DNA from: a virus
Direction: 5' to 3' (one strand)
Length of the DNA stretch: 64,000 bases
IMG/VR virus record: IMGVR_UViG_3300031521_000012
Coordinates: 103,972 to 167,971 of that record
Within the stretch, counting starts at the first letter, position 1. Each line of letters begins with the position of its first letter. The notes beneath the pieces are model-generated. The model saw nothing but the letters and a program-made list of their open reading frames with translations. It was not told the DNA's origin and did not search any database. A program made the translations under genes and the position numbers. This document shows positions 26,593 to 44,251 of the stretch, piece by piece.

Positions 26593-26922
26593 TTATTTTG
26601 ATGATTTTTTCCTATTCTGTTTTAATTCAGTATCATCGGTTTCAACAGGCACAATTGGTTGAGCAACGGGCTTAGCTTGACTAGCTTGTATTGAAGCTAA
26701 TTCGCTCTTGCTAATTTCATCAACGGTTATTAGGTTTTTCATCCTTAGTCCGTGAACCGAAATTGGTAATGATGATGCACTTAAATAAACAACCTCTGTT
26801 GGTTTAACGGAAATTATTTTCTTTTTCATATCATCTACGTATTCAATATTTACTATGGTGTTGAATTTAATATCACGCTTACCTAGCATATCGGTAATGT
26901 TTGTAATTTTATATGTATTCAT
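26593..26922 (-). CDS. hypothetical protein
   Basis: ORF track. Confidence 0.7.
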   Translation of the reverse strand: MNTYKITNITDMLGKRDIKFNTIVNIEYVDDMKKKIISVKPTEVVYLSASSLPISVHGLRMKNLITVDEISKSELASIQASQAKPVAQPIVPVETDDTELKQNRKKSSK

Positions 26923-26928
26923 AATTTT

Positions 26929-27744
26929 TTATTTTAGTCCTTGAATTAATGTATCGCCATATTTAATACCATCAAAACCCATCTTCATTGCTTTTTGTGC
27001 ATTTGCCTTGGTCTTTATGTTAATAGCTGGCATGTTATATTTTTCACCTAGTTTTTCAAAATTTACATTCGGAAACCATATTTTAGCTAGAATGTCAACT
27101 GGCTGTTGACTATCTTTATATGCAATCCCCAATGAATTTGTATCCAAAAGATTATCAAATTCGATTTCATATTTACTATATCCCTCAATAGGATTAATAG
27201 TAAAAAAGTTACCAACAACGGAATTATTCTTAATTGGGTCTCGTCTATATGCTATGATCTTTTGCTGATTAAGACTTGGGGTTTCAGTTTGAATGTTAAA
27301 ATTATCTTCATCCAACGAAGATAGAAATTGATCTTCATCATCACCATAATAATTTATAGCATCTTGCATTTCAACTTCTTCAATACCTTGTGAACCTTCA
27401 TATTCGTAAATATCCTGTATCTTATTTAAAATACGACAAGCATCATTTTTATTTAACATGACCATAACTGCTTTTAGATTAACACCATCCAATATAGCTT
27501 TAATTTGGCGATGATGTCCATCAATTACATTAAAATCCATATCTATATAGATTGGTTTAAGATCGTTTATTTCTGCTTTTCCTACTTCATCAGCAAATAC
27601 TATTTGTTGAGATACGTTTAATTTATTTGGGTCGGCATCCACTATTTTATAGCCAATACCCTCATCATCCAGTTTCTGTAACACAATACTGTATGGTAAA
27701 TTCAACTGAGGCATGAAGTAAGGTTTGTAGCGAGCATCAATCAT
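26929..27744 (-). CDS. ParB/Srx-like nuclease domain fused to possible ART-like C-terminal domain
   Basis: PIYIDMDFNVIDGHHR; acidic linker; C-terminal AYR..GNFFT..NLLD..GFDGIKY. Confidence 0.7.
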   Translation of the reverse strand: MIDARYKPYFMPQLNLPYSIVLQKLDDEGIGYKIVDADPNKLNVSQQIVFADEVGKAEINDLKPIYIDMDFNVIDGHHRQIKAILDGVNLKAVMVMLNKNDACRILNKIQDIYEYEGSQGIEEVEMQDAINYYGDDEDQFLSSLDEDNFNIQTETPSLNQQKIIAYRRDPIKNNSVVGNFFTINPIEGYSKYEIEFDNLLDTNSLGIAYKDSQQPVDILAKIWFPNVNFEKLGEKYNMPAINIKTKANAQKAMKMGFDGIKYGDTLIQGLK

Positions 27745-27757
27745 AAAATATTTTATT

Positions 27758-27765
27758 ATAAATAC
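27758..27765 (-). promoter_or_regulatory. GTATTTAT motif
   Basis: 13 bp upstream of 27744. Confidence 0.65.
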
Positions 27766-27772: not shown

Positions 27773-28675
27773 TTATTTTTTTATTTCCTTATCAATAAAA
27801 TCCCAATTGCTTAATGGAATCCACCCATATTTAGTGTTTATTTCTAATTCGCTAACTGGAATCTCTTTAGTTGTTATCCATTCATAGCCATCTTTCTTAT
27901 TGAACTTTGGTGATTGCTGAAAATCATCGGTTAATTTAGTTCTTAATACAACTGCTTTATTATCTCCACCTTTCATGTTAGCATAGTAATTAGCAACGTT
28001 AAGATCACTTGTAAACGAAGTAAATTGTTCATTGGCAGCATCGGGTCTCATTCTACCTTCACGCTGTATATGATACCCTGCGCCATCAGAAGTGCCATGA
28101 TAAATATAATTACCAGCAACAAAATCTTTAATTACTTCATCGATAATACCACCTACATTAAATTCAGACTCAACTAATGCAAAGTTGCCATCATGTGCCT
28201 CATATATATTAAATGTAATATGTTGAGGAAGCAAATGTTTAATACCTTGGTATGATTCAATATCAGTATCTCTATCATCAAAAACACTGATCTCAACTAA
28301 ATCTGGAAATTTAGCAACATATTGTAATATTTTCTCACCCTTAGTTAATTCGCTATGCTTCATATCGAGTTTATCAACATGAATGTTGTTTATATCTAAA
28401 ATTGCTTGAACTTCAGGGCGTAATTTCTCCATTCTTGATGTTAATACAATTACATAGGTATCAGGAGTATTCTTTTCCTTTAAATATTGTTGATACATAC
28501 TAGGAAATGGCTTAATATCAAAGATATTTAAGTCTAAACTTTCTTTCCTGCCCCACCAGCCAATATATGGAAAAGGTCTATTATAGTAATTAGCCCATGC
28601 AATTTTTCCCTCTTCAGGCAATGCTGTGGGGAATAACGTAGCATCTAAATCAAACGCCACCAGTCTTTTAATCAT
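27773..28675 (-). CDS. HAD phosphatase (Swiss-Army-Knife RNA-repair type) fused to ADP-ribosyltransferase-fold domain
   Basis: FDLDATLF, WW, LTSR, K, FDDR; C-terminal YHGTS..TSFTSD..A..YA..YEWI. Confidence 0.75.
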   Translation of the reverse strand: MIKRLVAFDLDATLFPTALPEEGKIAWANYYNRPFPYIGWWGRKESLDLNIFDIKPFPSMYQQYLKEKNTPDTYVIVLTSRMEKLRPEVQAILDINNIHVDKLDMKHSELTKGEKILQYVAKFPDLVEISVFDDRDTDIESYQGIKHLLPQHITFNIYEAHDGNFALVESEFNVGGIIDEVIKDFVAGNYIYHGTSDGAGYHIQREGRMRPDAANEQFTSFTSDLNVANYYANMKGGDNKAVVLRTKLTDDFQQSPKFNKKDGYEWITTKEIPVSELEINTKYGWIPLSNWDFIDKEIKK

Positions 28676-28720: not shown

Positions 28721-28739
28721 TGTATTTATTATAAATACA
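28721..28739. promoter_or_regulatory. palindromic double GTATTTAT motif between divergent genes
   Basis: tgtatttat-t-ataaataca, a perfect inverted repeat. Confidence 0.7.
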
Positions 28740-28744: not shown

Positions 28745-29752
28745 ATGAAAAATTATGATATAAAGCAAATGGCTGAATACTATTTTAACAGTAAACTTAC
28801 AAACAGAGAAATTGCAAAAATTTTTAACATATCGCCATGTACTGTTACTTATCAACTAAAAAGAAATGGATATACTCTTATTGATAAAGTACAATATGGA
28901 AACAATAGAAAACATAGTATAGATTTGAATTTTTTCAAAACAATCAATTCGTCCAATAAGGCATATATTTTGGGCTTAATATTATCTGATGGCTATGTAG
29001 ATGACTATACCAAATTAACGTTTACATCTAAAGATATTGAATTGGTTAAAATTTTTAAAAAAGAATTAAAATCAGAGCATAAATTGGCAACATATGATGT
29101 GTTCGATAAAAGAACCAATAAAACATATACAAGACATTCAATACAAATAGCATCAAAAGAAATTGTTTCTGATTTAAATAAACTTGGTGTATTTTCGAAA
29201 AAATCATTCACATGTACAATGCCTGAAATACCTGAAGCATATTTTTGGCATTTTATTAGAGGACTTTTCGATGGGGACGGTTCTATAAGCAAAGGAAGTA
29301 TGCGTAAAGAAGGCGCATTACAGTTTTCGATTATAGGTTCCGAAAACATGTTGAGGGTGATAAAAAACAAATTTAAATTATATGGGTTATCAAACACTAA
29401 ATTTGAAATTACTAAATATCATTCAGAGGATGACCATATCGCAAAGTTACATTATTATTCATATAATGACTTGTTTTTTCTAAATGAAAAAATATATGAA
29501 AATTCTGAGGGTCTAAGACTGACAAGAAAATATGATGTTTTTCAAACACTAAAAGAATATAGATTAGGGACTTACGATAGAACACCATCTTTACGCCAAA
29601 TTAGCATGTATGATTTAGAAAATAATTTACTTAAGATGTATAAAAACATACATGAAGCTTGTGATGAAAATAATTTATCTTATAAAACAATACATAGAGT
29701 TGCAATGGGTGAAAGAAATCACACACACTATCTGGTTTTTAGATATGTTTAA
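28745..29752 (+). CDS. LAGLIDADG homing endonuclease with N-terminal HTH and C-terminal NUMOD1-like domain
   Basis: AYILGLILSDG and FIRGLFDGDG; the only substantial + strand gene. Confidence 0.9.
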   Translation: MKNYDIKQMAEYYFNSKLTNREIAKIFNISPCTVTYQLKRNGYTLIDKVQYGNNRKHSIDLNFFKTINSSNKAYILGLILSDGYVDDYTKLTFTSKDIELVKIFKKELKSEHKLATYDVFDKRTNKTYTRHSIQIASKEIVSDLNKLGVFSKKSFTCTMPEIPEAYFWHFIRGLFDGDGSISKGSMRKEGALQFSIIGSENMLRVIKNKFKLYGLSNTKFEITKYHSEDDHIAKLHYYSYNDLFFLNEKIYENSEGLRLTRKYDVFQTLKEYRLGTYDRTPSLRQISMYDLENNLLKMYKNIHEACDENNLSYKTIHRVAMGERNHTHYLVFRYV

Positions 29753-29766: not shown

Positions 29767-30291
29767 TTATTTATAAAATGTTTTATATATTAATTTATCT
29801 ATATCAGCAAAAGGAACTTTAACTGTTATATCATTTCTTCCCCAATTTTTTCTACAATACCTTCGATAATTACCTAAACCAGCTTTTTCATAATATATCG
29901 TAAATCCTTCATCGTCAATATCAGACTTTCTAACGTTTTCTTCAACTAATGTTACTAAATCGGTTCTCATTACAAGATCAAAACGATTATCTCTTTCAAA
30001 TGCAATAGCTTTTAATTCACTGACATAAAGCCAACCAATGTCGCCATGAACGTTTTTAAGTTCAACCCATGTCTTGCCATCAGCTGTATCATGCTTAATA
30101 CCTTTCACATCGATGCTTTCATAAACACCATCTTTCGCTATCATTACATCCCAATGCTCATGCATATTCTCATATCGACTCGACTTCTCACATGTATAGC
30201 CTTCGGCAATTGCTAACTTCATGAACAAATCTTCACTAATATCACCCTTAGCTAAATCATCACTAATTTTACTTCTCAATTGATCATCCAT
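29767..30291 (-). CDS. PD-(D/E)XK nuclease-family protein
   Basis: GDISEDLF..HWDV..IDVKG..WVELKNVHGDIGWLY; start set at MDDQL. Confidence 0.65.
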   Translation of the reverse strand: MDDQLRSKISDDLAKGDISEDLFMKLAIAEGYTCEKSSRYENMHEHWDVMIAKDGVYESIDVKGIKHDTADGKTWVELKNVHGDIGWLYVSELKAIAFERDNRFDLVMRTDLVTLVEENVRKSDIDDEGFTIYYEKAGLGNYRRYCRKNWGRNDITVKVPFADIDKLIYKTFYK

Positions 30292-30296
30292 TATAT

Positions 30297-30677
30297 TTAT
30301 CTTGTTACTTCGGTTACTACGCCTGTTAATTTCAACGGAAACTTTATTGGTTGCCAATTATCCAATTTATTAGACATGAATGGTTTACCACCTGCAAGTC
30401 TATTTACGGCTACGGTAATATGTGCTTTATTATTTTGTGTATGATACCCCTCAACACCAACAGCCATTACCATAAAATCCATAGCATAGTCAATAACTGT
30501 TAGCTGAACTTCCATCCCAATATCATTTCTATATTGGGAATTGATTTCACCCATGTTAATTGTTGAATGGTGTGCTAATAACTCCCAATCATCAGGAATC
30601 ATTGGCTTAAACACTTTGATTAATCTGTCGTGTGATTCTTGATCAAGAACCACTGCGCTATATGATATGTTATTCAT
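30297..30677 (-). CDS. 2H phosphoesterase (tRNA-ligase cyclic phosphodiesterase-like)
   Basis: YSAVVL..HHSTINMG..AHITVA, two HxT motifs. Confidence 0.85.
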   Translation of the reverse strand: MNNISYSAVVLDQESHDRLIKVFKPMIPDDWELLAHHSTINMGEINSQYRNDIGMEVQLTVIDYAMDFMVMAVGVEGYHTQNNKAHITVAVNRLAGGKPFMSNKLDNWQPIKFPLKLTGVVTEVTR

Positions 30678-31713
30678 TAATATGTAAATTTTTTATTAAA
30701 ATATTGAAATCATCATAATTTTTATCAATAATAAATATAAACAGAAATCCGTTTTTTATACAGGCTTCACGTTTTAACTGGTTTTTTTCAAAATCTTTAG
30801 TATATAAATATCCGTTTTTAATCTCCACAATCAAATTATATTCAGGTAATAAAAAATCAGAATAATATATTTTATTGAACTCCAAATACACATAAGGAAT
30901 TCTAGGACCTCTCTTTATATCATAATATTCATAATATTTATCAAGAAAATCTTTTTCGTAACTACCTTGATAATAAATATCTTCATATTCGTGTACTTTC
31001 ATTGCACTTTTTTGCTGTTTGTTGAAAATTTCTTCATTTTGAGAACAATATTCAACGCCATATTTTGCTAAATTAGTCTTTTTTATTTCCTCCCGCATTC
31101 TTTTTGATTGAAACAAATATTCAACACCATATTTTGCTAAATTAGTACTTTTTGTTTTAGCCCTAGCTTTGTCGGTTTGACATGCAAATTCAATACCGTA
31201 TTTTATAAAATTATTTTTCTTGATATTATTTTTAATTGTTTCATTTTGAAAAGGATGAATAGTACCATAGTTTTTCATAAAAGTTTTTTCTTTTTTTTCT
31301 TTTACACTGGCATTATTTAAAGTACATTTATTTCCATATTTACGAATGTTCGTGTCAGCTATTTTTTCTTTAATTTTTTCATCATGCATTTGATGATAAA
31401 CACCGTGCTTGTTAAAATAATTGTTTTTTCTTTTTTCTAAAACATCTTTGTTCATGGTGGGCACATCACATCCATATTTTTTAACATTAGTTTCGCATGT
31501 TTTTGCTCTTATACATTTCGCAGAACATGTCTTAGAATATCCGTCACTTATTCTCAAATACTTGGTTTCGTTTCCACAATACTTACAAATGCCATCGTTT
31601 TCATCTTTAACCCATTTATCAAAATATATTTTAGGGTGAAAATGTTTCTCGGTAATATGTGTGCCAAGTGAAATAAAATTTTTTGCAAGAAATCCACATT
31701 CTTCACAAATCAT
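30670..31713 (-). CDS. homing endonuclease-like protein (Zn fingers, KYG repeats, PD-(D/E)XK)
   Basis: CEEC..H..H; CKYC; repeated T.L.KYGV; YYSDF..IVEIK. Confidence 0.8.
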   Translation of the reverse strand: MICEECGFLAKNFISLGTHITEKHFHPKIYFDKWVKDENDGICKYCGNETKYLRISDGYSKTCSAKCIRAKTCETNVKKYGCDVPTMNKDVLEKRKNNYFNKHGVYHQMHDEKIKEKIADTNIRKYGNKCTLNNASVKEKKEKTFMKNYGTIHPFQNETIKNNIKKNNFIKYGIEFACQTDKARAKTKSTNLAKYGVEYLFQSKRMREEIKKTNLAKYGVEYCSQNEEIFNKQQKSAMKVHEYEDIYYQGSYEKDFLDKYYEYYDIKRGPRIPYVYLEFNKIYYSDFLLPEYNLIVEIKNGYLYTKDFEKNQLKREACIKNGFLFIFIIDKNYDDFNILIKNLHINE

Positions 31714-31771: not shown

Positions 31772-34700
31772 TTATTTCTTTTCGTTTAAATTATTGTTAA
31801 GCGTCATATCAACATTATCATCGCCAAATTCACTATATGAAAACACTAATTTATTGCCAGTTAATGTTAGTTCATTATCAAATGTTTTCACATATTTTTT
31901 ACCTTCGCCTTTTTTCACATATGCAATCGTTATATGTGGATGATATTCATCAAATTCTGAAGTGTATGGTAATGTTTTCATTAACTTATTCAATCTTGTC
32001 AATTCTTCCGAATGTACATCAAATTTAACCACATCGAATTCGTCATTTTCAAATGTTGATATTCCTGAAATCTTAATAGATATTGGCTTTAATGACGTAT
32101 TTTTCTTAAATAATTCAAATGCCTCATTAGCCTTTACATCATTATTAAAACCATATAAAATAGTGACATGTGGCTCTGTTTCTATTCCATATCCATTGTC
32201 TTTTATGTACAAGTCATCAGATTTAATTATTGAGGTTAGCTTCTTCCATTTAGGAACATCCAAATACAACATCAAACAGCCATATTCAATATCATCACTA
32301 TTAGGCGCTTCATTCATGGTAATATTCATTTTATCATCCGAGTGTGCTTGATTTGGAAATCTCGCTCTACGAATCATTTCATTGCTGATCTTATTGGCGT
32401 ATATATTGAAAAATTTAAACTGTGAACTCTTGTTTTGAGCGATTTCTGTTAATTTTTTAACATTATTTGCTTGCTGTTCACCTCTATCCATATAATCATC
32501 ACTCGTATCTGATAGTCCAAATGCATTGTTTGATGATATTCTTCTTAATAATAAGTATTGATCTTGATGATCATCGATAAAATCATATGGCTCAATAAAT
32601 CCCAAAGCCTTAGCCATCGAATTATGATTGAAATACATATCTTCAGTCGCAACATATAAATCACCGTTTTTGTCAGCAATTGCACGCACAAACGAATTAA
32701 AGCCAGACAAAGACTTAGGATTTTTGAAGATTGGTGTCCATTCTTCTGTTCTAGTGTGCTGAACATATGCTATTGGCTTTTCAGCATTAATACTTAATGC
32801 CTTTTCTTGTGCATATTTATTATCAAACTCTTTTCCAGCATCGGGAATATTAAATGCTTTTTCAGCATATTTATCACCGATACCTTCTTGTACTGAATTA
32901 TCGCCAATAGTTGTCAATAATGCATTTTTATCATTGCTTACCTTATCAGAATAGATTTTTAATAATAATGCTTTTTGTGTATCACCAATTTGCTTACCTT
33001 TTAAGCCCATCGACATTAAATCATTACCATTTACAGCTAATTCATTAATAGTCTTAGGATATTTACCCGAAAGCAGTTCTTGCGCTGCATTTTGTACTTC
33101 AGTAGGTATTATCTTGCTTTGTAGTGATACTGGCGATATAACGTACACGTTGTGAGCAATTGATCTTGCTTTAACTGCATTATCAACTTCACCTGAACCA
33201 AATGCTTGCTCATATGCTTTAATCTCCTTATAGGTATCAATATCGCCTTTTAAATTGTTTTTAAAGAATTCTGCAGGATTCGGCATTAAACGAGTTAGTA
33301 AGTAAATGTATTCACCCATTGTATGTACATCTTCGAACGGACTTCTATCGATAGTTGATTGTTGTAAATCAGTATCGAATATCTGTTGAAATATACCAGT
33401 GTCTTTAAGTAATTGTGTACCTGTTCTTTTATTACCTTTACTCACTATTTTTTGAAATTCGATTAATATTCTTTCAGGTGGAATTTCTTTAATTCTACTT
33501 GCGTTATCGATTATTAATTGCATTGTCTCAGGCTCAATAGTAAAACCAAATCTAGAAGAAAATTGAACGCTCCTGAGCATGCGGAGGGGATCATCTGCAA
33601 ATGCTTGTGGATTAACAACACGAATTATCTTATTCTTCAAGTCTTCCTGACCACCGAATGGATCGATTATGTTACCATCAATATCTTTAGCCATTGCATT
33701 AATGGTAAAGTCCCGGCGCCTAAGATCATCCTCAATAGGTAATTCATGATCAGATGTAACATCAAATCCTTTATGACCACCCTCACCAGTTGGTTTGTCT
33801 TGTCTAGGAATAGCAATATCAATATCTTCTGATGCGCCAGCTGGTTTGAACTTTAATACGCCAAATGATTTACCAACAGCATCGACTTTACCATATTTAG
33901 ATAATATTTGCTCTAGTCTATCCATTGGAATACCTGCGATAAGAATATCTAAGTCTTTAGATTCCTTGCCAAGAAATTCATCACGCACTGATCCTCCAAC
34001 CTGTAGGATTCTTCCTCCAAGATATTGTACTTCTTCTTTAAATGGTAGGTCTTGTAAAGACATCAATTCTTTCATTTCAGTTAATTCATTTTCGTTAATA
34101 CGTGTATTTGGCTCATAAAGATAGTTCAGTTCTGGAATAAAATTAAATCTAGGATTCAATATCTTAGCCTTATCCATAAATTGTTTAAACTGAGCAATTG
34201 CATCATCATAACTAGGATAACGTTTCCATGTAAAAGTAGGCAATGCTTCTCTTTCAATATCAGGTGTTGCCATAATATTAGATTCACCAAGTAATATAAC
34301 ATTTGTACTTAAATATCTTTGAACTGTTATAAATCCTGCTACTAACGGTGGTACTTGATTCCAGTTATAATAATCCAATTTGACAGCACCAACTCTATTT
34401 AGTATTCTTAACATATCATCATGAATTCCAAAGCTCTCACGTTCAGCATAAAAATTTCCCTCGGCATCAATAATTCCTCTTATATCATATCCGACACTAT
34501 CAGGTGTTTTAGGGTTTTTTATTATTTCATTTCCAATCTTATCTCTATATAATACGTTTTCGTTATCAATAAGGTTACGGTTTGCACGATATTTTTTATC
34601 AAATTCTTTAAATTCAGGCTCAACACCTTGCTTTTCAGCATACTTATCACCAATACCTTCACTAAGTCCTTTCCAATCTTTTATTGCGTGAATTTTTATG

Positions 34701-37700
34701 TGTTCATTGATGAAATTTATACCATGGTTTTTTGCTTTAGCTTTATCTAGAAATTGCTTAAATATTACTAATGCATCGTCAAACTTAGTAATACTATTCC
34801 AATCAGGTTGAGGACTTACTCTGGACTTAAAATCATCAGGAATTAAAGCTAAGTTAGATTCACCGACAAATATGTCATTTGTTCTTTCATAACGTTGTAC
34901 AGTAACAAAATTAGTTTCTAATGGCGTTTTAATATTCCATTCTTGAGCATCATTTAATAAATGCAATTCATCTAATATTCTAAGTAATGTAATATGTATA
35001 TATCTTGGATAACTTTCGATATATAAATTACCTTCTCTGTCAATAACACCCCTAACATTTCCAAAAATATTTTTCAATGAAGACGGATTTCTTATTATAA
35101 AATATTCTTCATCATCTTCTCTAAATACAATATTTTCTTGATCTTGTTGAATCAAATGATTTGTGTATTTTTTATTAAATTCTTTGAATTCTGGCTCAAC
35201 CCCTTGCTTTTCAGCATATTTATCACCAACTCCTTCTTCTATTTCTTCTTCTCTGATGCCATATAGGAAACCAGCTAGCTTATTATTATCATTTGGTAAT
35301 CTGAATGTATAGTGATTGCCTTTAACATCAAGATATATTTCCGATTGTCTTGAGCTTAAATAATTTATGAAAACAGTCTTTATTATTTCATTTATTCTAC
35401 CTGCCTTATTACCCTGTAGCATTAGATTTGGCTTTATTCCAACTAGTTGATAATCTAGCCTAATTAAACCATCATTAAATGCTTTATCATATAACTTATC
35501 AATATTATCATCAGTATATTCGAATTGTTCACCTGACAAATATACATCAACTAGATAATCTATATGTGATTGAACTTGAATAAATCTATTATCGGGTAAT
35601 ATCCAACCCAATATTCTTCTTTGTGTTAGCATATTTTTTAATGCGAATAAACCAATTCCAACATATTCATCAGTATTAACTTCTTCATCGATTTCATCAG
35701 GATGTGGTTCGACAGGCAATTTGCTTATATACTCTTTGTATATATATTTATTTATTGATTCATCACTATAGCCCAATAGTCTACCTATCTCATAAGCTTC
35801 TTCAGGTGTCTGATCATCAGCATAACCACCATGTTGCATCATTATAGTATATAGCTTCTCTGCATTTGCTTTAGCTTCAGGTGTATTTCGATAAACTACA
35901 TATGTTTCAGCATCATGATCTGTTTGCTCAACAGGGATTCCTTGAAGTCCGTTCTCAATTGCGATATTCATTAATTTGTCACGTAATGCTGGAAAATTGT
36001 TAAATGATATGATTGAAACATCTTTACTTCCATCTGCCATTGCTTGTAACGCACTTTCGTCACGATATCCTACACTTGCATCAACAGTTTCATTGATAAC
36101 ATCTTCGGATATATAATCAGCTAGTTTAGCTTTACCATCTGCATTACCAGTATAAAATTTTTCATATTCTTCAGGATTCTCATATTCTAAGTATATTGTA
36201 TTGTCACCATACTGAATAAAATTTAAGAATAACTTTTTAAGTACATCAACAACTCTTTTTTTATCATAACCATTCAAAGATAATTCAGTTCTATATTGTT
36301 TAGGAGAATATTCTGATATAACCCTCACCCATCCATCTTCATAAGCTTTTTCAAATACACCATCCCTGCCGAAACTTCTGGCATATTGTGATTCAATGAA
36401 AGCTGCGTGTCTTAGCTTCGGAACTTGTATTAATTCATCTTGTGGTGATACCCATGCCCAATATGTTTGATTATATGGAATCTGTTCTTCGTTCAATGGC
36501 TTAATAATTAAATTATTGATATCACCTTGATTACATGCAGCACTTGTATTGCCTAAACCACCTAATCTACATTTCTTCTTAACATCAACTGTGCTACTGC
36601 CAGCCATTGAAGAAGTTATTCTTTCGTTAACAGTCATGTGGTATCTATCGTTACCTATTTTATCAACAATCTTGCCTTTAAAATATTTAATCAATAAATC
36701 CTTCATATATGGATTTACCACATCTAAATTTAATTTAACTTTATTACCAAACATGCTACGGTACTCTTTAAACTGATTAATACCATCTTGTGTCAATTCA
36801 CGACCAATTCCAGTACCACGATACTTTTCATCAACTACAACATCAAACGAAAATTGATTATCTGATGCATCAAATTCTGAAAAGATTGCACCTGCAACAA
36901 CACCATCTTTCAAGACAAAGCCAGTTAATTCTTTACCACGTAAAATATTAATACCACTTTTTCTTGCTATTTCAACTGATTGATTATATACATCTTCTCT
37001 GTCGTATTCAGCTTCGTCTTCATCATAATTCATATCATCACCATCTTCAGAATATCCTATTACTTCTTCATCAACAACATATTCATCTTGTGTTGCATCA
37101 TCAACATGTGAATTTTCTAAATCCTCAGTATACATTGCAGAATTGGCATTTAGATCGTTTTCGATTGATGGTGATGTATCAATTGGATTATATGAAGGAA
37201 AATCATCTGTAGTTGTCAATGAAGTAGCATCTTCATCAACTTCAATTTGCTTAGTTGTATTTGGATTGGGGTATTCCCGTTCACTGAAACCAATATCGAA
37301 AAAGCCAATAACACCGCTTTTCTTATAACCTAGATTCTCTGGTCTTATAAAATCATAGCTTTCAACACCATTTTCTTGTGCTTCTTTAGCTATGTTTAAT
37401 ACACTATCGAAAAAATATTTATCATCAGGATTCTTATCCAAATATTTTTGAACCTTATTATACCCTGCTTCGCCCAAGTAATTAGCTAAAACATCTGTTA
37501 TCACATCGCTAAAATGTAAACCCAATATTTTGCTAAAAGCAAAATTCATTCGGTCTGTTAATCGTTTAAAATTACCATCTGTTTTTAATTTTTCCAATAT
37601 AATTGCAAAAAGATTTTCTTTTAACTTGTTAGATCGTGATTTAATTGCGTAAACATCATAAATATCAGCAATGTACTCCAATCTTTTACCTATAAGTTCA

Positions 37701-38904: not shown

Positions 38905-38912
38905 ATAAATAC
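38905..38912 (-). promoter_or_regulatory. GTATTTAT motif
   Basis: 20 bp upstream of the polyprotein start. Confidence 0.65.
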
Positions 38913-38945: not shown

Positions 38946-39662
38946 TTACTGCCTTTTTGCTTCGTTTTTTGCTTTGAGTTCTCTAAACGCTTCAAAAACA
39001 ATGCTTTTAATCATTTCTTTATTATCGCCTAATACTTCCTTAATACGTTCAACAGCATACATTTCCAATATTGTGCTCTTAATTGCTTCCTCGACAATAG
39101 GACCGAAATTCTCTACCAAATAATTATTTACTATAGTTTTTACATTTTCGGTTAAATATGCTTCATTAATCTGCATTGGCGCACCCGTCATTTGCTGCTG
39201 TGGTTGTTGTGGAACATAATTATTATTCATTGGCGCACCTATGTTAGGAGTTTGTGTATATGCTCCCATTTGTTCGGCTAAAGTCTGTTTTCTTTTTCTT
39301 TCTACATCAAGATATAATTGTTCATCCCTTTCAGCAGATGACATATCACCTTCATTGATTCTATTGGGTTGTTGTGTTTGTTGACGGGTAGGTTCTGCAT
39401 CTTTAATTGGTAATTTTGTTCCCAATTTTATATTGCCTTTCCTTTCCATTGCATTATCATATGTTTTAACTAAAATAGTTGATGGAGTTTCCTTACCAGT
39501 ATTAAATGATTCCAACAACCCACTTAGAAATGAATCACGTGGTGCTAAATTATTACCGCTATTACTGATATTTTCGCCTAATCTAGTCGATACTCTATTT
39601 TTCTCATTTGTACGAGTAGATATTTCATCCCTCAGAATATTTAAGTCAAATTTTTGTGTCAT
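38946..39662 (-). CDS. hypothetical protein rich in (I/L)xE sites (candidate internal head protein)
   Basis: LGEN, LLES, INEG, INEA, LTEN, LVEN; own GTATTTAT motif. Confidence 0.65.
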   Translation of the reverse strand: MTQKFDLNILRDEISTRTNEKNRVSTRLGENISNSGNNLAPRDSFLSGLLESFNTGKETPSTILVKTYDNAMERKGNIKLGTKLPIKDAEPTRQQTQQPNRINEGDMSSAERDEQLYLDVERKRKQTLAEQMGAYTQTPNIGAPMNNNYVPQQPQQQMTGAPMQINEAYLTENVKTIVNNYLVENFGPIVEEAIKSTILEMYAVERIKEVLGDNKEMIKSIVFEAFRELKAKNEAKRQ

Positions 39663-39686: not shown

Positions 39687-39694
39687 ATAAATAC
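39687..39694 (-). promoter_or_regulatory. GTATTTAT motif
   Basis: Upstream of 39662. Confidence 0.6.
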
Positions 39695-39695: not shown

Positions 39696-40601
39696 TTATT
39701 GTTTGAAAAAAGGTTTCTTTTCAAATGGAATTGAAGGAGATTCACCATTTTCCGTATTTTTATTATCAGCTGTTCTTTGATTTTTAGCCTTTTCCCTATT
39801 TTGATTGAAAAAATTATCTTCAACAGAAGCGTTCTTTCTAATCAATGTATCATAAAGATTTGGTAAACTACCAACAATAGCGTTTTCAGGCACTTTATCT
39901 TTATCTTTAACATCTATAATATCAAATTCGTTATTATTATTAATAACAACCAGAAAACTGCCTTGTTTTTTCTTATAAACTCTACTGGCGATATCACGTA
40001 ATTTAATTACATCGTCAGCCAAAATTCTTCTATTATTTTTATTTCCTCTAGTAAAATTATCCCATTTAGTTCTTTTCTCACCTGCTTGTTGTTGTGGTTG
40101 AACTTCTTTGGGCTGAAAATCAGGTTCATTCTTTGATGAAACATATGCAATAATACTTGACATGCCACCATCAGCACCTTCATTATATTTAGGTGGAATC
40201 ATTACTGTACCATCAGGATTATTGAATTTTTTACCGATTGGGTAAGCTTTACTTATTTTATCGAGACTGAACATACGCCACCCGGGCTTCACACCCTCAT
40301 TATCATTCCAATAATCATGTTCTAAGCTATCTGTACGTGTTGGTCTGTTATCAAAAGTAACACTATTCTTTTTATTGTCTTGCCATGCTCGAATTACTTT
40401 ATTACCTGCAGTTGACACACCTAACACGTAGGGTCTTATTGTTCGATAGCCTTTTTGATTGGTTTCATCACCAGTATAGTAAATATAAACATATTCGTGA
40501 TTTTGAATATATTTCGCCATGTCACTATCGTTTACCGCTTCTGTTAATAGCAGACGAAAACGCTTAATATTATTAAATAATGTTTTTACTTCGTTTAACA
40601 T
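39696..40601 (-). CDS. WYL-domain protein without HTH
   Basis: VYIYY..GYRTIRPYVLG..VIRAW..GWRMFSLDKI. Confidence 0.8.
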   Translation of the reverse strand: MLNEVKTLFNNIKRFRLLLTEAVNDSDMAKYIQNHEYVYIYYTGDETNQKGYRTIRPYVLGVSTAGNKVIRAWQDNKKNSVTFDNRPTRTDSLEHDYWNDNEGVKPGWRMFSLDKISKAYPIGKKFNNPDGTVMIPPKYNEGADGGMSSIIAYVSSKNEPDFQPKEVQPQQQAGEKRTKWDNFTRGNKNNRRILADDVIKLRDIASRVYKKKQGSFLVVINNNNEFDIIDVKDKDKVPENAIVGSLPNLYDTLIRKNASVEDNFFNQNREKAKNQRTADNKNTENGESPSIPFEKKPFFKQ

Positions 40602-40889: not shown

Positions 40890-41669
40890 TTATTCGTACT
40901 TTACGAAGACCAAATTGATATATTCTATTAAAAGTGGAACGGTATCTAAATATGACATTTCTTCAACATCAAACCAACCATAATTAGTATTTTCCTTATT
41001 TAATGTAATGGCAGTTGGGTCACCATCATATCTACAAGCAAACATATGTTCAATACTGCCTTTATGCCTTTGGATAGTAAATGTTTTAGTGAACTTATTG
41101 ATATCTAAATCTGTTTCTTCCTTAATTTCTCTTTCAACAGCTTTTTCAGGTGTTTCACCCTTTTCAACACCACCACCAACTAAGCTCCATTGATTATTGC
41201 CCCAGCCATTTTTAACTTCACCTCTTTTCAATAATAATATTTTATTATCTGGATTAACAATTACAGCTAATGCATTTTTTTTAATTTCCTTTTTATCATC
41301 ACTCTCGTTTATTCTAGGTGCTTGATATGGCATTAATTCTGAATTGGGATTTGAAGTCATATCCCTTCTCACTTCAGTTGATCTACTTACGGCATCCCTA
41401 TTTGCATTAAGTGTCCGATCAACAAACGATTTCATCAGTTCACCACCAGCTAATACATATTGGGTCTTGTCATCATTTTGAATGTTGAAGTGATCAAAGA
41501 AGTTTTTCAACCTCTTTAATGCCTGATAGGTTATAACACCGTTTTTAAGCAGGTATTTAGCTCTTTTAACGCCATTTCCATTAGGATTGGATATAAGAGC
41601 TGCCCTGATGCTTTGCAACACGTCAGGAGCTATTCTAAACGTTTTATCGTATAATTGAGCATTTGCCAT
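40890..41669 (-). CDS. Nudix hydrolase with unknown N-terminal domain
   Basis: Nudix box GGVEKGETPEKAVEREIKEET. Confidence 0.9.
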   Translation of the reverse strand: MANAQLYDKTFRIAPDVLQSIRAALISNPNGNGVKRAKYLLKNGVITYQALKRLKNFFDHFNIQNDDKTQYVLAGGELMKSFVDRTLNANRDAVSRSTEVRRDMTSNPNSELMPYQAPRINESDDKKEIKKNALAVIVNPDNKILLLKRGEVKNGWGNNQWSLVGGGVEKGETPEKAVEREIKEETDLDINKFTKTFTIQRHKGSIEHMFACRYDGDPTAITLNKENTNYGWFDVEEMSYLDTVPLLIEYINLVFVKYE

Positions 41670-41672
41670 TGA

Positions 41673-43364
41673 TTATAAATTTAGGGTAAATTTCATATTA
41701 CCACAATCATAAATACATAAAAATCCCCTTTCGGACATAATTTCATGCTCGGTTTTATTTGGGTCAAATCCTTCTCTTACCAATACATCTTTACGATAGT
41801 TAAATCTATGGTGTCTTATCATTTCATTCTTTTCAAAATACCAATAATTAGGTTTGGTATTTTTAATAAAATGAAATCCCAATTGTTTATATAAATTACC
41901 TTGTGAATATCTTCTATCGGCAAATGTTAGTATTGACACAGGTTTATATGTTTTAATAAAATACGATAATAGTCTACTTGCACCGCCAATAACGCTTGTG
42001 TTAAGCTTATTACAAAAACGTAACATTTCATACTCTCCGTCAACATTAATTTTGTTACCCATGACTAATCTTTTATTACCAAAAGTCATTAATGACACCA
42101 ATTCATTATTATAGAATAGCCCTATTTTAATTTTAGCATTAACATTCCCTTGAATGTGATTATTGTTAAGAAATGTCTGTGATGTATTACCATCAATTTC
42201 TCTAACAACACATTTTCTAGCAAATATTTTATTATCGATTATTCCTAACTTACTTTTAAGTATTGACTTAACTATTTCATTTTTATTAAGCCATTCATCT
42301 TCAAATATGTGTATTAGCTGAATACCTTGTTGTTCACATAATTCTGTTTTATTTAAATGATAGTCGGTAGATTTACCAGCATTTGAATGCCAATATAATC
42401 CATCGAATTCAATGCCAAGATTGTGCGACTCAACATAAACATCTAGCTCCAAGGGTGATATGATTTTTCTAGTATTTCTCACATTTTCAACATGTAAATC
42501 ATCGATAAAATATTGAAGGTCTTTTCCCCTTAACGAATCACATTCACTAATAGGAAAACATTTTGTGCAAAATTTATCGTGTTTATATGAAATAAAACGA
42601 GAATATAAATTATGCTTTGAAATTTCAAACGATTCGTGTTTTTCACAATAATTATTAATAATAATCGTTTTATCTGCAATTTCAAGATTATGTATATCAA
42701 TATTCAACAGCTTAGAAATTTTTCGTAAATATTTTTTATCTTGTATGGTTTTAGAATTGCTCAAGAATTCGGTGGATTGAAAATTATATTCATATCCACA
42801 ATTTTCTAAATTAGTTTGTTTCTTTTTTTCTTTTATTTCTACAGATTGCGAATTATGTTCAACACCAAATTTTTTTAAATTCGTTTCTGTTATTTTATCT
42901 TTCGTTTCTTTACACAATAAATTAGTTACTGCGCCAAATCTTTCAATATATGTTTGCTGTTTTTTTTCTTTAACTGAATCTAATTGTGATTGATGATCGA
43001 CACCATATTTTTCCTGAAACAATTTCCTTCTTTTTTCCTGAACAACAGCTAATTGTAACGGGTTTTCAACGCCATGTTTTTCAAAATAGTTTTGTTTATT
43101 TTTTACTTTCAATTCTTCATCCTTATATCTACATTCGTTTGAGCAATATGAATAATATCCCCTACCAAATTTTAAAAACTTAAGCGCATTACCGCATTTA
43201 CATACAGGCAATGTGCTTAAGCCATTAACATAATTATACATTTTTTGACCCCAAGAAATATCACCAAAATTTTTATTAAGCTCAACTACCTTAAGATATT
43301 CATCATAATAATTATCTCGCATTTGAGCAATTCCGTAATATTTTCCAGTTAGTAATTCACACAT
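41673..43364 (-). CDS. homing endonuclease-like protein (KYG repeats, Vsr/DUF559-like, Hef-like C-terminus)
   Basis: ELDVY..IEFDGLYWHS..IHIFEDEW..FARKC..NHIQG..MLRFC..GGASRL..ADRR..IYDCG. Confidence 0.8.
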   Translation of the reverse strand: MCELLTGKYYGIAQMRDNYYDEYLKVVELNKNFGDISWGQKMYNYVNGLSTLPVCKCGNALKFLKFGRGYYSYCSNECRYKDEELKVKNKQNYFEKHGVENPLQLAVVQEKRRKLFQEKYGVDHQSQLDSVKEKKQQTYIERFGAVTNLLCKETKDKITETNLKKFGVEHNSQSVEIKEKKKQTNLENCGYEYNFQSTEFLSNSKTIQDKKYLRKISKLLNIDIHNLEIADKTIIINNYCEKHESFEISKHNLYSRFISYKHDKFCTKCFPISECDSLRGKDLQYFIDDLHVENVRNTRKIISPLELDVYVESHNLGIEFDGLYWHSNAGKSTDYHLNKTELCEQQGIQLIHIFEDEWLNKNEIVKSILKSKLGIIDNKIFARKCVVREIDGNTSQTFLNNNHIQGNVNAKIKIGLFYNNELVSLMTFGNKRLVMGNKINVDGEYEMLRFCNKLNTSVIGGASRLLSYFIKTYKPVSILTFADRRYSQGNLYKQLGFHFIKNTKPNYWYFEKNEMIRHHRFNYRKDVLVREGFDPNKTEHEIMSERGFLCIYDCGNMKFTLNL

Positions 43365-44251
43365 TATTTTATCTCCAATAAGTTAATCAATTTGTTTACA
43401 TCACCTCTATCCATTTTATTGATTAATCCAGCAATTTTTTCTAATTTCTTTGCACGAACCTCATTATCATCGGATTTAGATGTTATTTCATCTTCACTTT
43501 TTTTATCAATCATTTTATCCTCAACCACATTAACTTCAGTCAATGAATCTGGTTTAACAGCATAAAAGTCAGGATGATTTTTATTTATCCAATTGAAAAT
43601 TTCTTCATCACTAATAGCAAGACCAAGCCAATCAGGATATCCAATATGCCAATTATTTCTAACACTATCTAATCTGCCAGCTTTATCGAAATTAAATGTA
43701 ATATAGAATTGATCATTCAGCTTACTTTTAATCGTTAACGGTTTTCTTTCTTCAATTGGTTTTTGCTGCCATGATGTGTTATAACCATTGTCATCGATTG
43801 TTTCATCAATGGCTTCTGGTTCATTAAATGCGTTTTCGAAATGCTTTTCCATTATCTTCATTGCCTTTTTAGCATATTGAGTATTAACGTGTTTATCGAC
43901 ACCAATATCTCCATCAGATATTTTTCTATAATCAGATTTTAATTTATTTGGATTCTGGTAATAAAACTTCAATATTTGCTTATATCTTTCAAACATAAGT
44001 TCCGTAAGATCAGTAAGTAATTCCGTTTGTCCTTGATTTTCAGTGCCTTCTTCCATGAAAGGCATTAATGTGAAACCAAAACGACCAAGCATGTCATATC
44101 TGAATGGCTGTTGACCTATTTTTGCATTACTATCGGTAGTGCCGTTTGCTTGTGATTCTAAATCAGAACCATTTGTAGGTATATCGTTTAAGCCAATTAA
44201 GTCACCGTTTGAATCGATGATTTCATCTAAAGCTTTCTTATTAAATTCCAT
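43364..44251 (-). CDS. hypothetical protein with several (I/L/V)xE sites
   Basis: ORF track; GTATTTAT upstream. Confidence 0.7.
   Translation of the reverse strand: MEFNKKALDEIIDSNGDLIGLNDIPTNGSDLESQANGTTDSNAKIGQQPFRYDMLGRFGFTLMPFMEEGTENQGQTELLTDLTELMFERYKQILKFYYQNPNKLKSDYRKISDGDIGVDKHVNTQYAKKAMKIMEKHFENAFNEPEAIDETIDDNGYNTSWQQKPIEERKPLTIKSKLNDQFYITFNFDKAGRLDSVRNNWHIGYPDWLGLAISDEEIFNWINKNHPDFYAVKPDSLTEVNVVEDKMIDKKSEDEITSKSDDNEVRAKKLEKIAGLINKMDRGDVNKLINLLEIK

What the first reader, a model, noticed from the sequence alone, without database searches (positions are those of the whole stretch)
26593..44251. 18-kb late-regulated cluster of nucleotide/RNA-modifying effectors with [ILVM]-x-E sites at domain junctions: candidate capsid-packaged, protease-released counter-defence cocktail
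Seen: junctions in the polyprotein read VVNEE, ILNEG, VDEE, VNER, LNEE, INET, IDEE, IEEG, LSEG, INENELTE, VQEG, MNEA and LNEKK. The Nudix domain starts after RINES, WYL after LLTEA, and the ART-like domain after LVES/IDEV. These genes carry the same GTATTTAT motif as structural genes. Established: T4 gp21 prohead protease cleaves after Glu in (I/L)-x-E. Inference: these enzymes are made late, packaged, cut into single domains and ejected into the next host before phage transcription starts.
Basis: partly seen in the sequence, partly recalled or inferred. Interest (0 to 1): 0.88.

Follow-up and report, generated by a model that had tools for sequence, protein, structure and literature searches.

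The report
Late-gene polyvalent protein with protease-site junctions
A jumbo phage encodes a 2370-residue chain of enzyme domains and neighbouring enzymes, behind the same promoter motif as its virion genes; the domains are separated by conserved sites that fit the head-maturation protease of its relatives, so they are probably packed in the capsid and cut apart, which is not yet shown.

Summary
The observation largely holds. All 13 listed motifs are in the 2370-aa protein (window 31772-38884, minus strand). The total count of [ILVM]-x-E is at chance (47 seen, about 44 expected), but the placement is not. About half the sites fall in the 15% of the protein that homology breakpoints and AlphaFold2 mark as junctions, and the domain cores are depleted.

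Nine junction sites are 73-99% conserved across 120 giant homologues, with an invariant hydrophobic P3, a variable P2 and an invariant Glu at P1. Inserted domains are bracketed by duplicated sites.

GTATTTAT is a real promoter-like element. In a complete relative it precedes the portal, large terminase and tail-fibre genes.

The contig is only about 51% complete and has no protease gene. All 10 complete relatives examined encode a T4 gp21-type (Peptidase_S77) protease; the five checked for capsid genes carry it beside a gp23-type capsid gene.

So "late, packaged, cleaved" is coherent and supported by comparison, but unproven. The ART label is unsupported and the WYL label is weak. Three genes in the cluster are homing endonucleases.

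The concept is known (polyvalent proteins, Iyer 2017; T4 Alt). New here are the family built around a CCA-adding enzyme and the use of prohead-protease sites instead of an embedded peptidase.

The parts
44269..44276 (-). GTATTTAT late-type promoter motif, 17 nt upstream of the first gene of the block
43364..44251 (-). 295-aa protein of unknown function, conserved in relatives. Here it carries an extra domain of about 85 aa (residues ~152-235) bracketed by AIDE (148) and SLTE (237), each 95% conserved
41673..43364 (-). Homing endonuclease (DUF7487 plus an HNH/REase-like domain): a selfish insert, not an effector
   Evidence: phrog_3339, E = 1.5e-138
40890..41669 (-). Nudix hydrolase. It has a 120-aa N-terminal domain, then the RINE|S junction (85% conserved), then the Nudix domain at 132-239
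39696..40601 (-). 301-aa conserved protein, weakly WYL-like. LLTE|A at residues 19-21 is 98% conserved and could end an N-terminal propeptide
38946..39662 (-). 238-aa protein with a Q/N-rich middle and a conserved helical C-terminus. QINE|A (165) is 87% conserved. It has its own GTATTTAT at 39687-39694
38905..38912 (-). GTATTTAT motif 20 nt upstream of the polyprotein start. It is conserved at this place in eight relatives, often just after a terminator hairpin
31772..38884 (-). 2370-aa polyvalent protein (P0001). Order of parts: kinase-like K1, linker, helical 'mid' domain, kinase-like K2, acidic module, GNAT, Cys module, X1, Y, X2, R1, R2, CCA-adding enzyme, R3, 2H phosphoesterase
37241..38884 (-). 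Residues 1-548. K1 (1-202) and K2 (339-548) have a protein-kinase-like fold, with a helical domain (255-325) between them. AF2 low-confidence linkers are 203-250, 326-338 and 552-560. The sites VNE (252-254), LNE (336-338) and VDE (549-551) sit at the linker edges
37067..37231 (-). Acidic module of about 55 aa (residues 552-606), conserved in 105 of 121 family members. It is bounded by VDE|D (99% conserved) and VDE|E (99% conserved)
36623..37066 (-). GNAT acetyltransferase cassette (residues about 607-754), present in only 5 of the listed homologues. It is inserted between the duplicated sites 604-606 and 752-754
36488..36622 (-). Nearly invariant 45-aa Cys module (residues 755-799), with a core motif ending CNQGDI. 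It is flanked by h-x-E|R on the left and [ILV]-x-E on the right (P3 100% hydrophobic, P1 98% Glu, n = 118). It is found only in this protein family: 189 clusters among 1.84 billion proteins
34091..36487 (-). Cassettes X1 (800-932), Y (933-1067), X2 (1068-1217), R1 (1218-1409) and R2 (1410-1598). X and R are internal repeats. Each R starts E|G-[IV]-[GA]-D-K-Y-A-E-K. R is a confidently modelled domain with no match among solved structures
32885..34090 (-). Class II CCA-adding enzyme / poly(A) polymerase domain (residues about 1599-2000). It is a separate gene in many relatives
31775..32884 (-). R3 (2001-2192) and a 2H phosphoesterase (2193-2370) of the LigT/Acb1 type with two H-x-T motifs. The protein ends with LNE-KK
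30670..31713 (-). Homing endonuclease (DUF7487) inserted at the last cassette junction of the polyprotein
30297..30677 (-). 126-aa domain, weakly like the tRNA-ligase CPD / 2H type. In 65 homologues it is the C-terminal domain of the polyprotein, preceded there by [IL]-x-E. Here it is a separate ORF
29767..30357 (-). 196-aa conserved protein of unknown function (TTG start uncertain; overlaps the previous ORF)
28745..29752 (+). LAGLIDADG homing endonuclease on the opposite strand, served by the palindromic double motif at 28722-28738
27773..28675 (-). HAD-type phosphatase (DxDxT at residues 9-13; weak PNK-like PHROG hit) plus an extra C-terminal domain (about 186-300) found in only 8 relatives. 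Junction sites: LVE|S 92% and IDE|V 73% conserved. The HAD domain is fused to the polyprotein in locus L024. The ART identity is not supported
26929..27744 (-). 271-aa conserved protein with a ParB/Srx-like DGHHR motif (read by eye; no Pfam hit). It has its own GTATTTAT at 27758-27765
26593..26922 (-). 109-aa conserved protein, the last gene of the block
26542..26565 (-). Strong intrinsic terminator (10-bp stem, T run) that closes the block

Best explanation
The region is a conserved gene block, transcribed from late-type promoters, of an uncultured jumbo phage. The full genome is probably about 330 kb (CheckV rates this 168-kb contig ~51% complete), and complete relatives are 321-365 kb. The promoters of other genes point to a Bacteroidota host, and the head module of relatives is of the T4 type.

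The core of the block is a 2370-aa polyvalent protein built as beads on a string. It holds two kinase-like domains, a GNAT, a CCA-adding enzyme, a 2H phosphoesterase, several repeated domains of unknown fold, and two small, very conserved modules.

The beads are separated by conserved [ILVM]-x-Glu sites. These are most likely cleavage sites of the phage's gp21-type (Peptidase_S77) prohead protease. In T4 that protease works inside assembled proheads. If the same holds here, cleavage would mean that the polyprotein, and probably the neighbouring Nudix, HAD-phosphatase, WYL-like and unknown proteins, are built into the prohead. There they would be cut into single domains and most likely delivered with the DNA into the next cell. 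The domain content suggests they would act on RNA, tRNA ends and nucleotides.

Shown: the domain layout, the position and conservation of the sites, the shared promoter motif, and the S77 protease in relatives.

Inferred: cleavage, packaging, ejection, and the counter-defence role.
For: (1) All listed sites exist and are concentrated at junctions that were defined independently.
- BLAST breakpoints cluster at 328-343, 600-615, 736-760, 792-808, 928-935, 1048-1079, 1192-1215, 1392-1407, 1584-1607, 1992-2015 and 2160-2175.
- Natural gene fissions in relatives map to about 204, 331, 557, 751, 1594-1601 and 1994-1998.
- AF2 low-confidence linkers are 203-250, 326-338 and 552-560.
- Enrichment: P = 4e-8. 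In shuffles, junctions hold 20 sites against 9.2 and cores are depleted, 24 against 33.4.

(2) Conservation across 120 homologues.
- Sites 252 (95%), 549 (99%), 604 (99%), 752 (85%), 797 (97%), 930 (95%), 1215 (73%), 1407 (82%) and 1998 (87%).
- Logos: acidic-module start, n = 103, P3 V/L/I/M 100%, P2 free, P1 Glu 99%. Cys-module right flank, n = 118, P3 I/L/V 100%, P1 Glu 98%, P1' free.

(3) Cassette logic.
- Inserted domains are bracketed by duplicated sites.
- The C-terminal 126-aa domain of 65 homologues is preceded by [IL]-x-E.
- Neighbouring proteins show the same rule: Nudix 85%, 301-aa protein 98%, HAD 92%.

(4) All 10 complete relatives (321-365 kb) that carry the Cys module encode Peptidase_S77 above Pfam's cut-off. 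In the five also searched for PF07068 it lies next to a gp23-type capsid gene, whose N-terminal region carries a conserved M-I-N-E|S.

(5) GTATTTAT precedes the polyprotein in eight relatives. In complete relative G005 it also precedes the portal, large terminase, tail-fibre and head-module genes. On this contig it precedes the endolysin and tail/baseplate-module genes.

(6) Literature. T4 gp21 cuts after Glu, and the ejected enzyme Alt is cut at ITE-6 and LTE-619 (PMC5694885). Head-internal proteins are built into the prohead core and ejected (PMC9026906). Phage polyvalent proteins lie near late virion genes and are predicted to be packaged and processed (PMC5512222).
Against: - No protease, capsid or portal gene lies on this contig, so the protease is inferred from relatives.
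- There are no proteomic data, and no cultured relative exists. Only distant K1-like hits appear in GenBank phages.
- The polyprotein's N-terminus is a confidently folded helix of the kinase-like domain (pLDDT about 94). No T4-like capsid-targeting peptide is visible.
- The HAD protein's catalytic Asp is at residue 9, which leaves no room for an N-terminal propeptide.
- In many relatives the CCA enzyme is a separate gene. It would then need its own route into the head.
- A hydrophobic residue and a Glu two positions apart also fit an ordinary beta-strand end. The reverse motif is enriched at junctions too.
- Late expression alone does not prove packaging. From my own recollection, T4 RNA ligase 1 is also made late.
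- I chose the junction windows for the statistics after seeing the sites.
Confidence: 0.5

Rival explanations
1. A cytoplasmic, unpackaged multi-enzyme. The polyprotein and its neighbours are made late (or middle to late) and work inside the producing cell as an RNA-repair and nucleotide-metabolism factory, for example against tRNA-cleaving abortive-infection nucleases. The conserved h-x-E elements would then be structural linker features, or sites for some other protease.
For: - The domain content is typical of phage RNA repair: CCA-adding enzyme, 2H phosphoesterase, HAD/PNK-like phosphatase and Nudix.
- Unchecked first-reader notes of this scan place tRNA-like genes, an RNA ligase, Thg1 and Pth2 elsewhere on the genome. 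Of these I confirmed only an RNA-ligase-family gene.
- The CCA enzyme is a separate gene in many relatives.
- No capsid-targeting peptide is visible.
- Jumbo-phage CCA enzymes are described as cytoplasmic repair or tRNA-maturation enzymes (PMC7824862, PMC3622015).
Against: - It does not explain why Glu at P1 and a hydrophobic residue at P3 are nearly invariant in otherwise variable linkers while P2 is free.
- It does not explain why inserted domains duplicate the site.
- It does not explain why domain cores are depleted of the motif.
- It does not explain why the block uses the virion-gene promoter six times within 18 kb.
Confidence: 0.3
2. Packaged and processed, but not an ejected effector set. 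The fragments would serve head assembly or DNA organisation, like scaffold, internal-body or internal-peptide components, or would be expelled from the head during maturation. The enzyme domains would have no role in the next host.
For: - The acidic module (552-606), the nearly invariant Cys module and the Q/N-rich 238-aa protein look more like structural or docking elements than enzymes.
- T4 core proteins are cut into peptides that mostly leave the head (PMC9026906).
Against: - The catalytic motifs look intact: GGxVRD, DxD and RRD-x-T-x-NA in the CCA enzyme, two H-x-T motifs in the 2H domain, and the acetyl-CoA loop of the GNAT.
- The accessory enzyme cassettes vary between phages (GNAT, ART-PolyVal, ParB, HAD). 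That pattern is typical of conflict effectors rather than scaffolds.
Confidence: 0.12
3. Chance. [ILVM]-x-E is simply frequent in an AT-rich, Glu- and Ile-rich proteome, and the first reader picked the copies that lie near domain borders.
For: The total count is at the composition expectation, 47 against about 44.
Against: - The positional skew (P = 4e-8) and the depletion in cores.
- 73-99% conservation at nine junctions across 120 homologues.
- The control motifs hxD, hxK and hxN are flat.
Confidence: 0.03

Closest known systems
Polyvalent proteins of phages and conjugative elements (Iyer, Burroughs, Anand, de Souza, Aravind 2017, J Bacteriol; PMC5512222)
   Same: - One polypeptide carries many unrelated enzymatic domains.
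- It is encoded beside late virion genes.
- The accessory domain set varies between members and includes GNAT, with ART-PolyVal (PF18760) and ParB (PF02195) in homologues.
- It is predicted to be packaged, processed and delivered with the DNA.
   Different: - There is no embedded zincin-like metallopeptidase: HExxH is absent here and present in only 2 of 121 homologues.
- There is no MuF or portal fusion.
- Processing would instead rely on prohead-protease sites between the cassettes.
- The core is a CCA-adding enzyme with twin kinase-like domains. That paper's main text never uses the term 'CCA-adding' (0 occurrences).
T4 Alt and internal proteins IPI-III (substrates of the gp21 prohead protease that are ejected into the host)
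   Same: - A T4-type head module in relatives (S77 protease plus gp23-type capsid protein).
- Sites of the form I/L-x-E. For comparison, Alt is cut at ITE-6 and LTE-619 (PMC5694885).
- A late promoter and a position beside baseplate and tail genes.
- Enzymes presumed to act at the start of infection.
   Different: - T4 substrates lose short terminal propeptides. Here about a dozen internal cuts would release separate domains from one 2370-aa chain.
- No 10-residue capsid-targeting sequence is recognisable.
- The enzymes are RNA- and nucleotide-directed, not an ADP-ribosyltransferase.
Head ejection and inner-body proteins of phiKZ-like phages (phiKZ gp175, SPN3US gp245 substrates)
   Same: Many head-internal proteins are cut after Glu at a three-residue motif, with multiple redundant sites, and are ejected into the cell (PMC9026906, PMC5694885, PMC10052503).
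   Different: - Those proteases prefer a small residue (A/S/G) at P3, not I/L/V/M.
- The cleavages reported for SPN3US remove terminal (mostly N-terminal) propeptides (PMC10052503) and do not dissect multi-enzyme chains.
- The phage lineage is different.
Stand-alone phage tRNA nucleotidyltransferases (PHROG 2244) and jumbo-phage RNA-repair genes (PMC7824862)
   Same: The CCA-adding domain (residues 1599-2000) matches PF01743/PF12627 and phrog_2244 (E = 5e-66). It co-occurs with phosphoesterase and phosphatase domains, as in RNA-repair sets.
   Different: Here the enzyme is embedded in, or encoded next to, a giant polyvalent protein under a virion-type promoter.

Membership tests
Polyvalent proteins (Iyer et al. 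2017) | Several domains of disparate biochemical activity in one polypeptide | tested here: met
   Kinase-like fold twice; GNAT, CCA-adding NTase and 2H phosphoesterase; plus domains of unknown fold
Polyvalent proteins (Iyer et al. 2017) | Encoded by a phage in the neighbourhood of late or virion genes | tested here: met
   Baseplate and tail genes lie 5-15 kb downstream. The promoter motif is shared with portal, large terminase and tail-fibre genes in a relative
Polyvalent proteins (Iyer et al. 2017) | Embedded zincin-like metallopeptidase (a frequent but not universal theme) | tested here: not met
   No HExxH in P0001, and only 2 of 121 homologues have one. No peptidase family in Pfam or PHROGs
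Polyvalent proteins (Iyer et al. 2017) | Hallmark accessory domains such as ART-PolyVal or ParB | tested here: inconclusive
   PF18760 and PF02195 are present in several homologues but not in this protein
Polyvalent proteins (Iyer et al. 2017) | Packaged in the virion and delivered with the DNA | not testable with these tools
   Needs proteomics of particles; no cultured relative exists
Substrates of a T4 gp21-type (Peptidase_S77) prohead protease | The phage encodes an S77 protease | tested here: inconclusive
   None on this 51%-complete contig. Present in 10 of 10 complete relatives that carry the polyprotein's Cys module
Substrates of a T4 gp21-type (Peptidase_S77) prohead protease | Cleavage motif with a hydrophobic residue (I/L) at P3 and Glu at P1, in accessible segments | tested here: met
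   Logos; conservation; sites at AF2 low-confidence linker edges
Substrates of a T4 gp21-type (Peptidase_S77) prohead protease | N-terminal capsid-targeting propeptide | tested here: inconclusive
   None visible on the polyprotein: residues 3-15 form a helix with pLDDT above 90. Only the 301-aa neighbour has a candidate, residues 1-21 ending in LTE, 98% conserved
Substrates of a T4 gp21-type (Peptidase_S77) prohead protease | Actual cleavage, and presence in proheads or virions | not testable with these tools
   Needs an experiment
Class II CCA-adding enzyme / poly(A) polymerase (PF01743) | Head domain and RNA-binding domain above Pfam's cut-offs; GGxVRD, DxD and RRD-x-T-x-NA motifs | tested here: met
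   PF01743 at 77.7 bits (cut-off 23) and PF12627 at 57.9 bits (cut-off 22). The motifs can be read at about residues 1630-1650 and 1722-1730
2H phosphoesterase (LigT / Acb1-like) | Two H-x-T/S motifs and a family HMM match | tested here: met
   PF13563 at 36.6 bits (cut-off 27) and PF23474 Acb1 at 28 bits (cut-off 27). HVT at 2239 and HIT at 2317. Which substrate it uses was not tested
WYL domain (301-aa protein, 39696-40601) | Pfam WYL match | tested here: inconclusive
   E = 0.18 and 12.3 bits against a cut-off of 21.8. The nearest Atlas clusters carry WYL in 13-22% of members
ADP-ribosyltransferase (C-terminal domain of 27773-28675) | Any ART family match | tested here: inconclusive
   No Pfam hit at E <= 1, no PHROG hit, and no similarity to the ART-PolyVal-bearing homologues. 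The domain was not folded

The most novel reading that the evidence does not exclude
A widespread group of uncultured T4-head jumbo phages pre-loads its capsids with an RNA- and nucleotide-directed toolkit: a CCA-adding enzyme, a 2H phosphoesterase, kinase-like enzymes, Nudix, a phosphatase and variable cassettes. The toolkit is made as one modular polyprotein. The prohead protease cuts it at conserved I/L/V-x-Glu junctions, so new effector cassettes can be added simply by inserting them between two sites. The enzymes would enter the next host with the DNA and pre-empt tRNA- or nucleotide-based defences before any phage gene is expressed.
Probability: 0.4. Interest if true: 0.8.

Novelty: new variant of a known kind. 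Interest (0 to 1): 0.62.

Why it matters
If true, it extends two known ideas, T4's ejected head proteins and Aravind's polyvalent proteins, to a new arrangement. The capsid-maturation protease would double as the processing enzyme of a modular effector polyprotein. RNA-repair-type enzymes such as a CCA-adding enzyme would be delivered as proteins rather than expressed early.

It would also give a simple sequence rule, conserved I/L/V-x-E between cassettes together with an S77 protease, for finding capsid cargo in uncultured jumbo phages.

It points to several conserved domains of unknown fold or function: R, X, Y, the acidic module and the Cys module.

Even if packaging fails, the family is a large uncharacterised group of giant phage proteins: at least 167 clusters at 90% identity, and 189 clusters at 50% identity for the Cys module.

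Tried and rejected
- The search for related loci with the whole protein found no close relative. An alignment of the Cys module was needed instead.
- PF03420 (gp21 protease) and PF07068 (gp23 capsid) are absent from this contig. The larger ORFs sampled in the other 104 kb are early-, replication- and repair-type genes and an endolysin, with no head genes.
- tblastn of residues 1-800 against GenBank phages found only weak K1-like hits in Xanthomonas and Alishewanella phages, so there is no cultured relative with virion proteomics.
- The R domain has no match among solved structures: best Foldseek E = 0.38, best VIA-align Z = 4.1. Its function is left open.
- ESM Atlas gave nothing usable for the 295-aa protein.
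- Pfam at E <= 1 gave nothing for K1, K2, X, Y, the claimed ART domain or the ParB-like protein.
- I tested whether the Cys module is a general capsid-targeting tag on many small proteins. It occurs only in this polyprotein family, and the short hits look like fragments.
- I looked for an embedded zincin peptidase and found none.
- I sent no complex prediction. A protease with its substrate is a poor use of that tool, and no binding is claimed.
- The 'pure chance' reading is rejected.

Full report
**Context**

The window is the last 64 kb of a 167,971-bp linear IMG/VR contig with about 30% G+C. CheckV rates the contig at about 51% complete. Nearly all genes lie on the minus strand.

Upstream of the finding are replication genes: a family B DNA polymerase with an intein, a helicase and a QueC-like gene. 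Downstream are baseplate and tail genes: gp6-like and gp25-like wedge proteins, a tail tube protein and large unknown proteins. The closest GenBank records are uncultured huge phages (LR756504, LR756508) and Flavobacterium phage immuto, all at low identity. Two genes outside the block have promoters of the Bacteroidota type, TTTG followed by TAnnTTTG.

**The block and its borders**

A GTATTTAT motif at 44269-44276 opens the block, and a strong terminator at 26542-26565 closes it. Five more copies of the motif lie inside the block.

Gene content:
- a 295-aa protein of unknown function
- a homing endonuclease
- a Nudix hydrolase with an N-terminal extra domain
- a 79-aa protein
- a 301-aa weakly WYL-like protein
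- a 238-aa Q/N-rich protein
- the 2370-aa protein
- a second homing endonuclease
- a 126-aa 2H-like domain protein
- a 196-aa protein of unknown function
- a LAGLIDADG endonuclease on the plus strand
- a HAD phosphatase with an extra C-terminal domain
- a 271-aa protein with a DGHHR motif
- a 109-aa protein

Apart from the three endonucleases, the order is conserved in dozens of related contigs.

**The 2370-aa protein**

Pfam and PHROGs recognise only three parts:
- a GNAT at about residues 650-708
- a class II CCA-adding enzyme at 1629-1992
- a 2H phosphoesterase at 2237-2341, near both 2_5_RNA_ligase2 and Acb1

Self-alignment shows internal repeats. There are two N-terminal domains with glycine-rich loops, two X domains, and three R domains that each start E-G-[IV]-G-D-K-Y-A-E-K.

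AlphaFold2 with a 43-sequence alignment gives a confident model of residues 1-560, with mean pLDDT 82. It shows folded parts at 1-202, 254-325 and 343-550, and low-confidence linkers at 203-250, 326-338 and 552-560. Foldseek places the two N-terminal domains in the protein-kinase-like fold, with hits to p38, CaMK and APH(2'') at E about 1e-4.

The R domain folds confidently (pLDDT 85, pTM 0.79) but has no match among solved structures.

**A large family**

A search of 5.8 billion proteins found 167 giant homologues of 1300-2900 aa, on contigs of up to 366 kb.

Nearly all share this core: K1, the helical domain, K2, an acidic module of about 55 aa, a nearly invariant 45-aa module with two cysteines, and the CCA-adding enzyme. 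The other cassettes vary. They include GNAT, 2H, X, Y, R, ART-PolyVal (PF18760), ParB (PF02195) and a tRNA-ligase-CPD-like domain.

The Cys module occurs in only 189 clusters at 50% identity among 1.84 billion proteins. All of them look like members or fragments of this family.

**The sites**

The overall number of [ILVM]-x-E sites is what the amino-acid composition predicts: 47 seen, about 44 expected. Counting alone therefore says nothing.
- BLAST breakpoints against 120 homologues
- natural gene fissions in relatives
- AF2 linkers

23 of the 47 sites lie in these windows, which cover 14.9% of the length (P = 4e-8). Shuffling within segments gives 20 sites against 9.2 +/- 2.6 at junctions and 24 against 33.4 +/- 4.9 in the cores. 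The control motifs hxD, hxK and hxN are flat. The reverse motif is also raised at junctions, partly because the sites are often followed by Glu and then a hydrophobic residue. I drew the windows after I had seen the sites, which weakens the P values but not the conservation data.

**Conservation**

Nine junction sites are conserved across the family:

| Site (P3 residue) | Conserved |
|---|---|
| 252 | 95% |
| 549 | 99% |
| 604 | 99% |
| 752 | 85% |
| 797 | 97% |
| 930 | 95% |
| 1215 | 73% |
| 1407 | 82% |
| 1998 | 87% |

Sites 336, 1065, 1596 and 2190 are weak, at 20-59%.

The logos are the most telling result. Before the acidic module (n = 103), P3 is V/L/I/M in 100%, P2 is free and P1 is Glu in 99%. 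After the Cys module (n = 118), P3 is I/L/V in 100%, P2 is free, P1 is Glu in 98% and P1' is free. These residues stand out from poorly conserved surroundings.

**Cassette logic**

Extra domains sit between duplicated sites:
- This protein's GNAT lies between V-D-E (604-606) and V-N-E (752-754). In most homologues that position is a single site directly before the Cys module.
- X1 lies between L-N-E (797-799) and I-N-E (930-932). Elsewhere the Y domain follows the Cys module directly.
- The 295-aa neighbour has an 85-aa insert between I-D-E and L-T-E, both 95% conserved.
- The HAD protein of most relatives ends shortly after L-V-E and I-[DN]-E. Here an extra domain follows.
- The 126-aa gene at 30297-30677 is the C-terminal domain of the polyprotein in 65 homologues, where [IL]-x-E always precedes it. 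Here a homing endonuclease sits exactly at that junction, and the polyprotein stops after L-N-E-K-K.

**The protease**

This contig has no match to Peptidase_S77 or to the gp23 capsid family, and its other 104 kb is mostly small early genes.

The Cys module retrieved 77 IMG/VR loci. All ten relatives that CheckV rates 100% complete (321-365 kb) encode Peptidase_S77 above Pfam's cut-off. In the five searched for PF07068, the protease lies next to a gp23-type capsid gene with E about 1e-64. The N-terminal region of that capsid protein carries a conserved M-I-N-E|S.

The literature agrees on the biology. T4 gp21 and its giant-phage homologues cut after Glu in a three-residue motif. T4 Alt is cut at ITE-6 and LTE-619. 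These substrates are built into the prohead core, and several are ejected (PMC5694885, PMC9026906).

**The promoter motif**

GTATTTAT occurs 21 times in the window against 10.1 +/- 3.2 expected. Nineteen copies are on the gene strand, typically 13-27 nt before a start codon, with no visible -35 element. Several follow terminator hairpins directly.

On this contig the motif precedes genes of the tail/baseplate module (including the operon holding the gp25-like wedge gene), a fibre-like protein, the endolysin, and six genes of the block. It is conserved before the polyprotein gene in eight relatives.

In the complete relative G005 about 50 copies precede genes. These include the portal, the large terminase, a tail fibre, the gene upstream of the capsid gene, and the polyprotein block. 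The protease gene has the variant CTATTTAT. Co-regulation with virion genes is therefore well supported. 'Late' remains an inference from gene content.

**Weighing**

The data fit the published polyvalent-protein concept: packaged, near late virion genes, proteolytically processed (PMC5512222). They also fit the T4 Alt precedent. The difference is that no embedded peptidase is present, and the junctions instead carry the signature of the prohead protease.

Against packaging:
- There is no proteomic evidence.
- No targeting peptide is recognisable on the polyprotein.
- The CCA enzyme is a separate gene in many relatives.
- A hydrophobic-x-Glu pattern could also be a structural feature.

My probabilities are about 0.5 for 'packaged and cut by the prohead protease', 0.3 for an unpackaged late enzyme complex, 0.12 for packaged but not an ejected effector set, and about 0.03 for chance.

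The counter-defence role rests only on domain content. The 'ART-like' label is unsupported and 'WYL' is weak.

**Novelty**

No paper in the searched library describes a packaged CCA-adding enzyme or this family. The principle is known; the variant is new.

Noticed in passing
L087 160-1947; L088 1396-3141 (relatives G001, G003; also G009, G010): In four of ten complete relatives the S77 prohead protease ORF is about 580-650 aa, and the Pfam match is split in two. In L088 the insert starts with Cys right after the conserved EADHP motif. This looks like an intein inside the protease gene.
   Followed up: partly
window 28722-28738: GTATTTAT and its reverse complement overlap by one base to form a 17-nt palindrome. 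It appears to serve both the plus-strand LAGLIDADG endonuclease and the minus-strand HAD gene: a bidirectional late promoter.
   Followed up: no
window 53275-53340 and 61841-61900: The helicase gene and the gene at 60584-61840 have upstream sequences of the Bacteroidota sigma-A type (TTTG ... TAnnTTTG). This suggests the host phylum and an early promoter class distinct from GTATTTAT.
   Followed up: no
window 4209-4829: A 206-aa phage sigma-factor-like gene (phrog_1740, E = 3e-16) is a candidate reader of the GTATTTAT promoters, which lack a -35 element. The motif resembles the -10 part (CGTATwAT) of the ECF-type promoters that another note describes elsewhere on this genome.
   Followed up: no
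window 44286-49055: The family B DNA polymerase ORF is 1589 aa, with a weak Intein_splicing match at residues 748-1089. It probably contains an intein.
   Followed up: no
window 24503-25885: A 460-aa protein just downstream of the block is very strongly conserved in relatives (E about 1e-256). Only its C-terminal part matches a glycosyltransferase PHROG, and its role is unknown.
   Followed up: no
P0001 residues 1218-1598 and 2001-2192 (window 34091-35233, 32309-32884): The thrice-repeated R domain (about 190 aa, conserved start G-V-G-D-K-Y-A-E-K) folds confidently (pLDDT 85) but has no match among solved structures.
   Followed up: partly
window 29767-30677: The ORFs 30297-30677 and 29767-30357 overlap by about 60 nt. 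The second has only a TTG start. Relatives' homologues align from about residue 23-40, so the true start is probably further downstream.
   Followed up: no
L024 9443-13966; L019 9872-12115: Relatives split or fuse the polyprotein differently. In L024 K1 is a separate gene and the HAD phosphatase is fused to the C-terminus. In L019 an ORF begins at M-N-E-D-S-T-S-K-F, exactly at the junction before the acidic module.
   Followed up: partly
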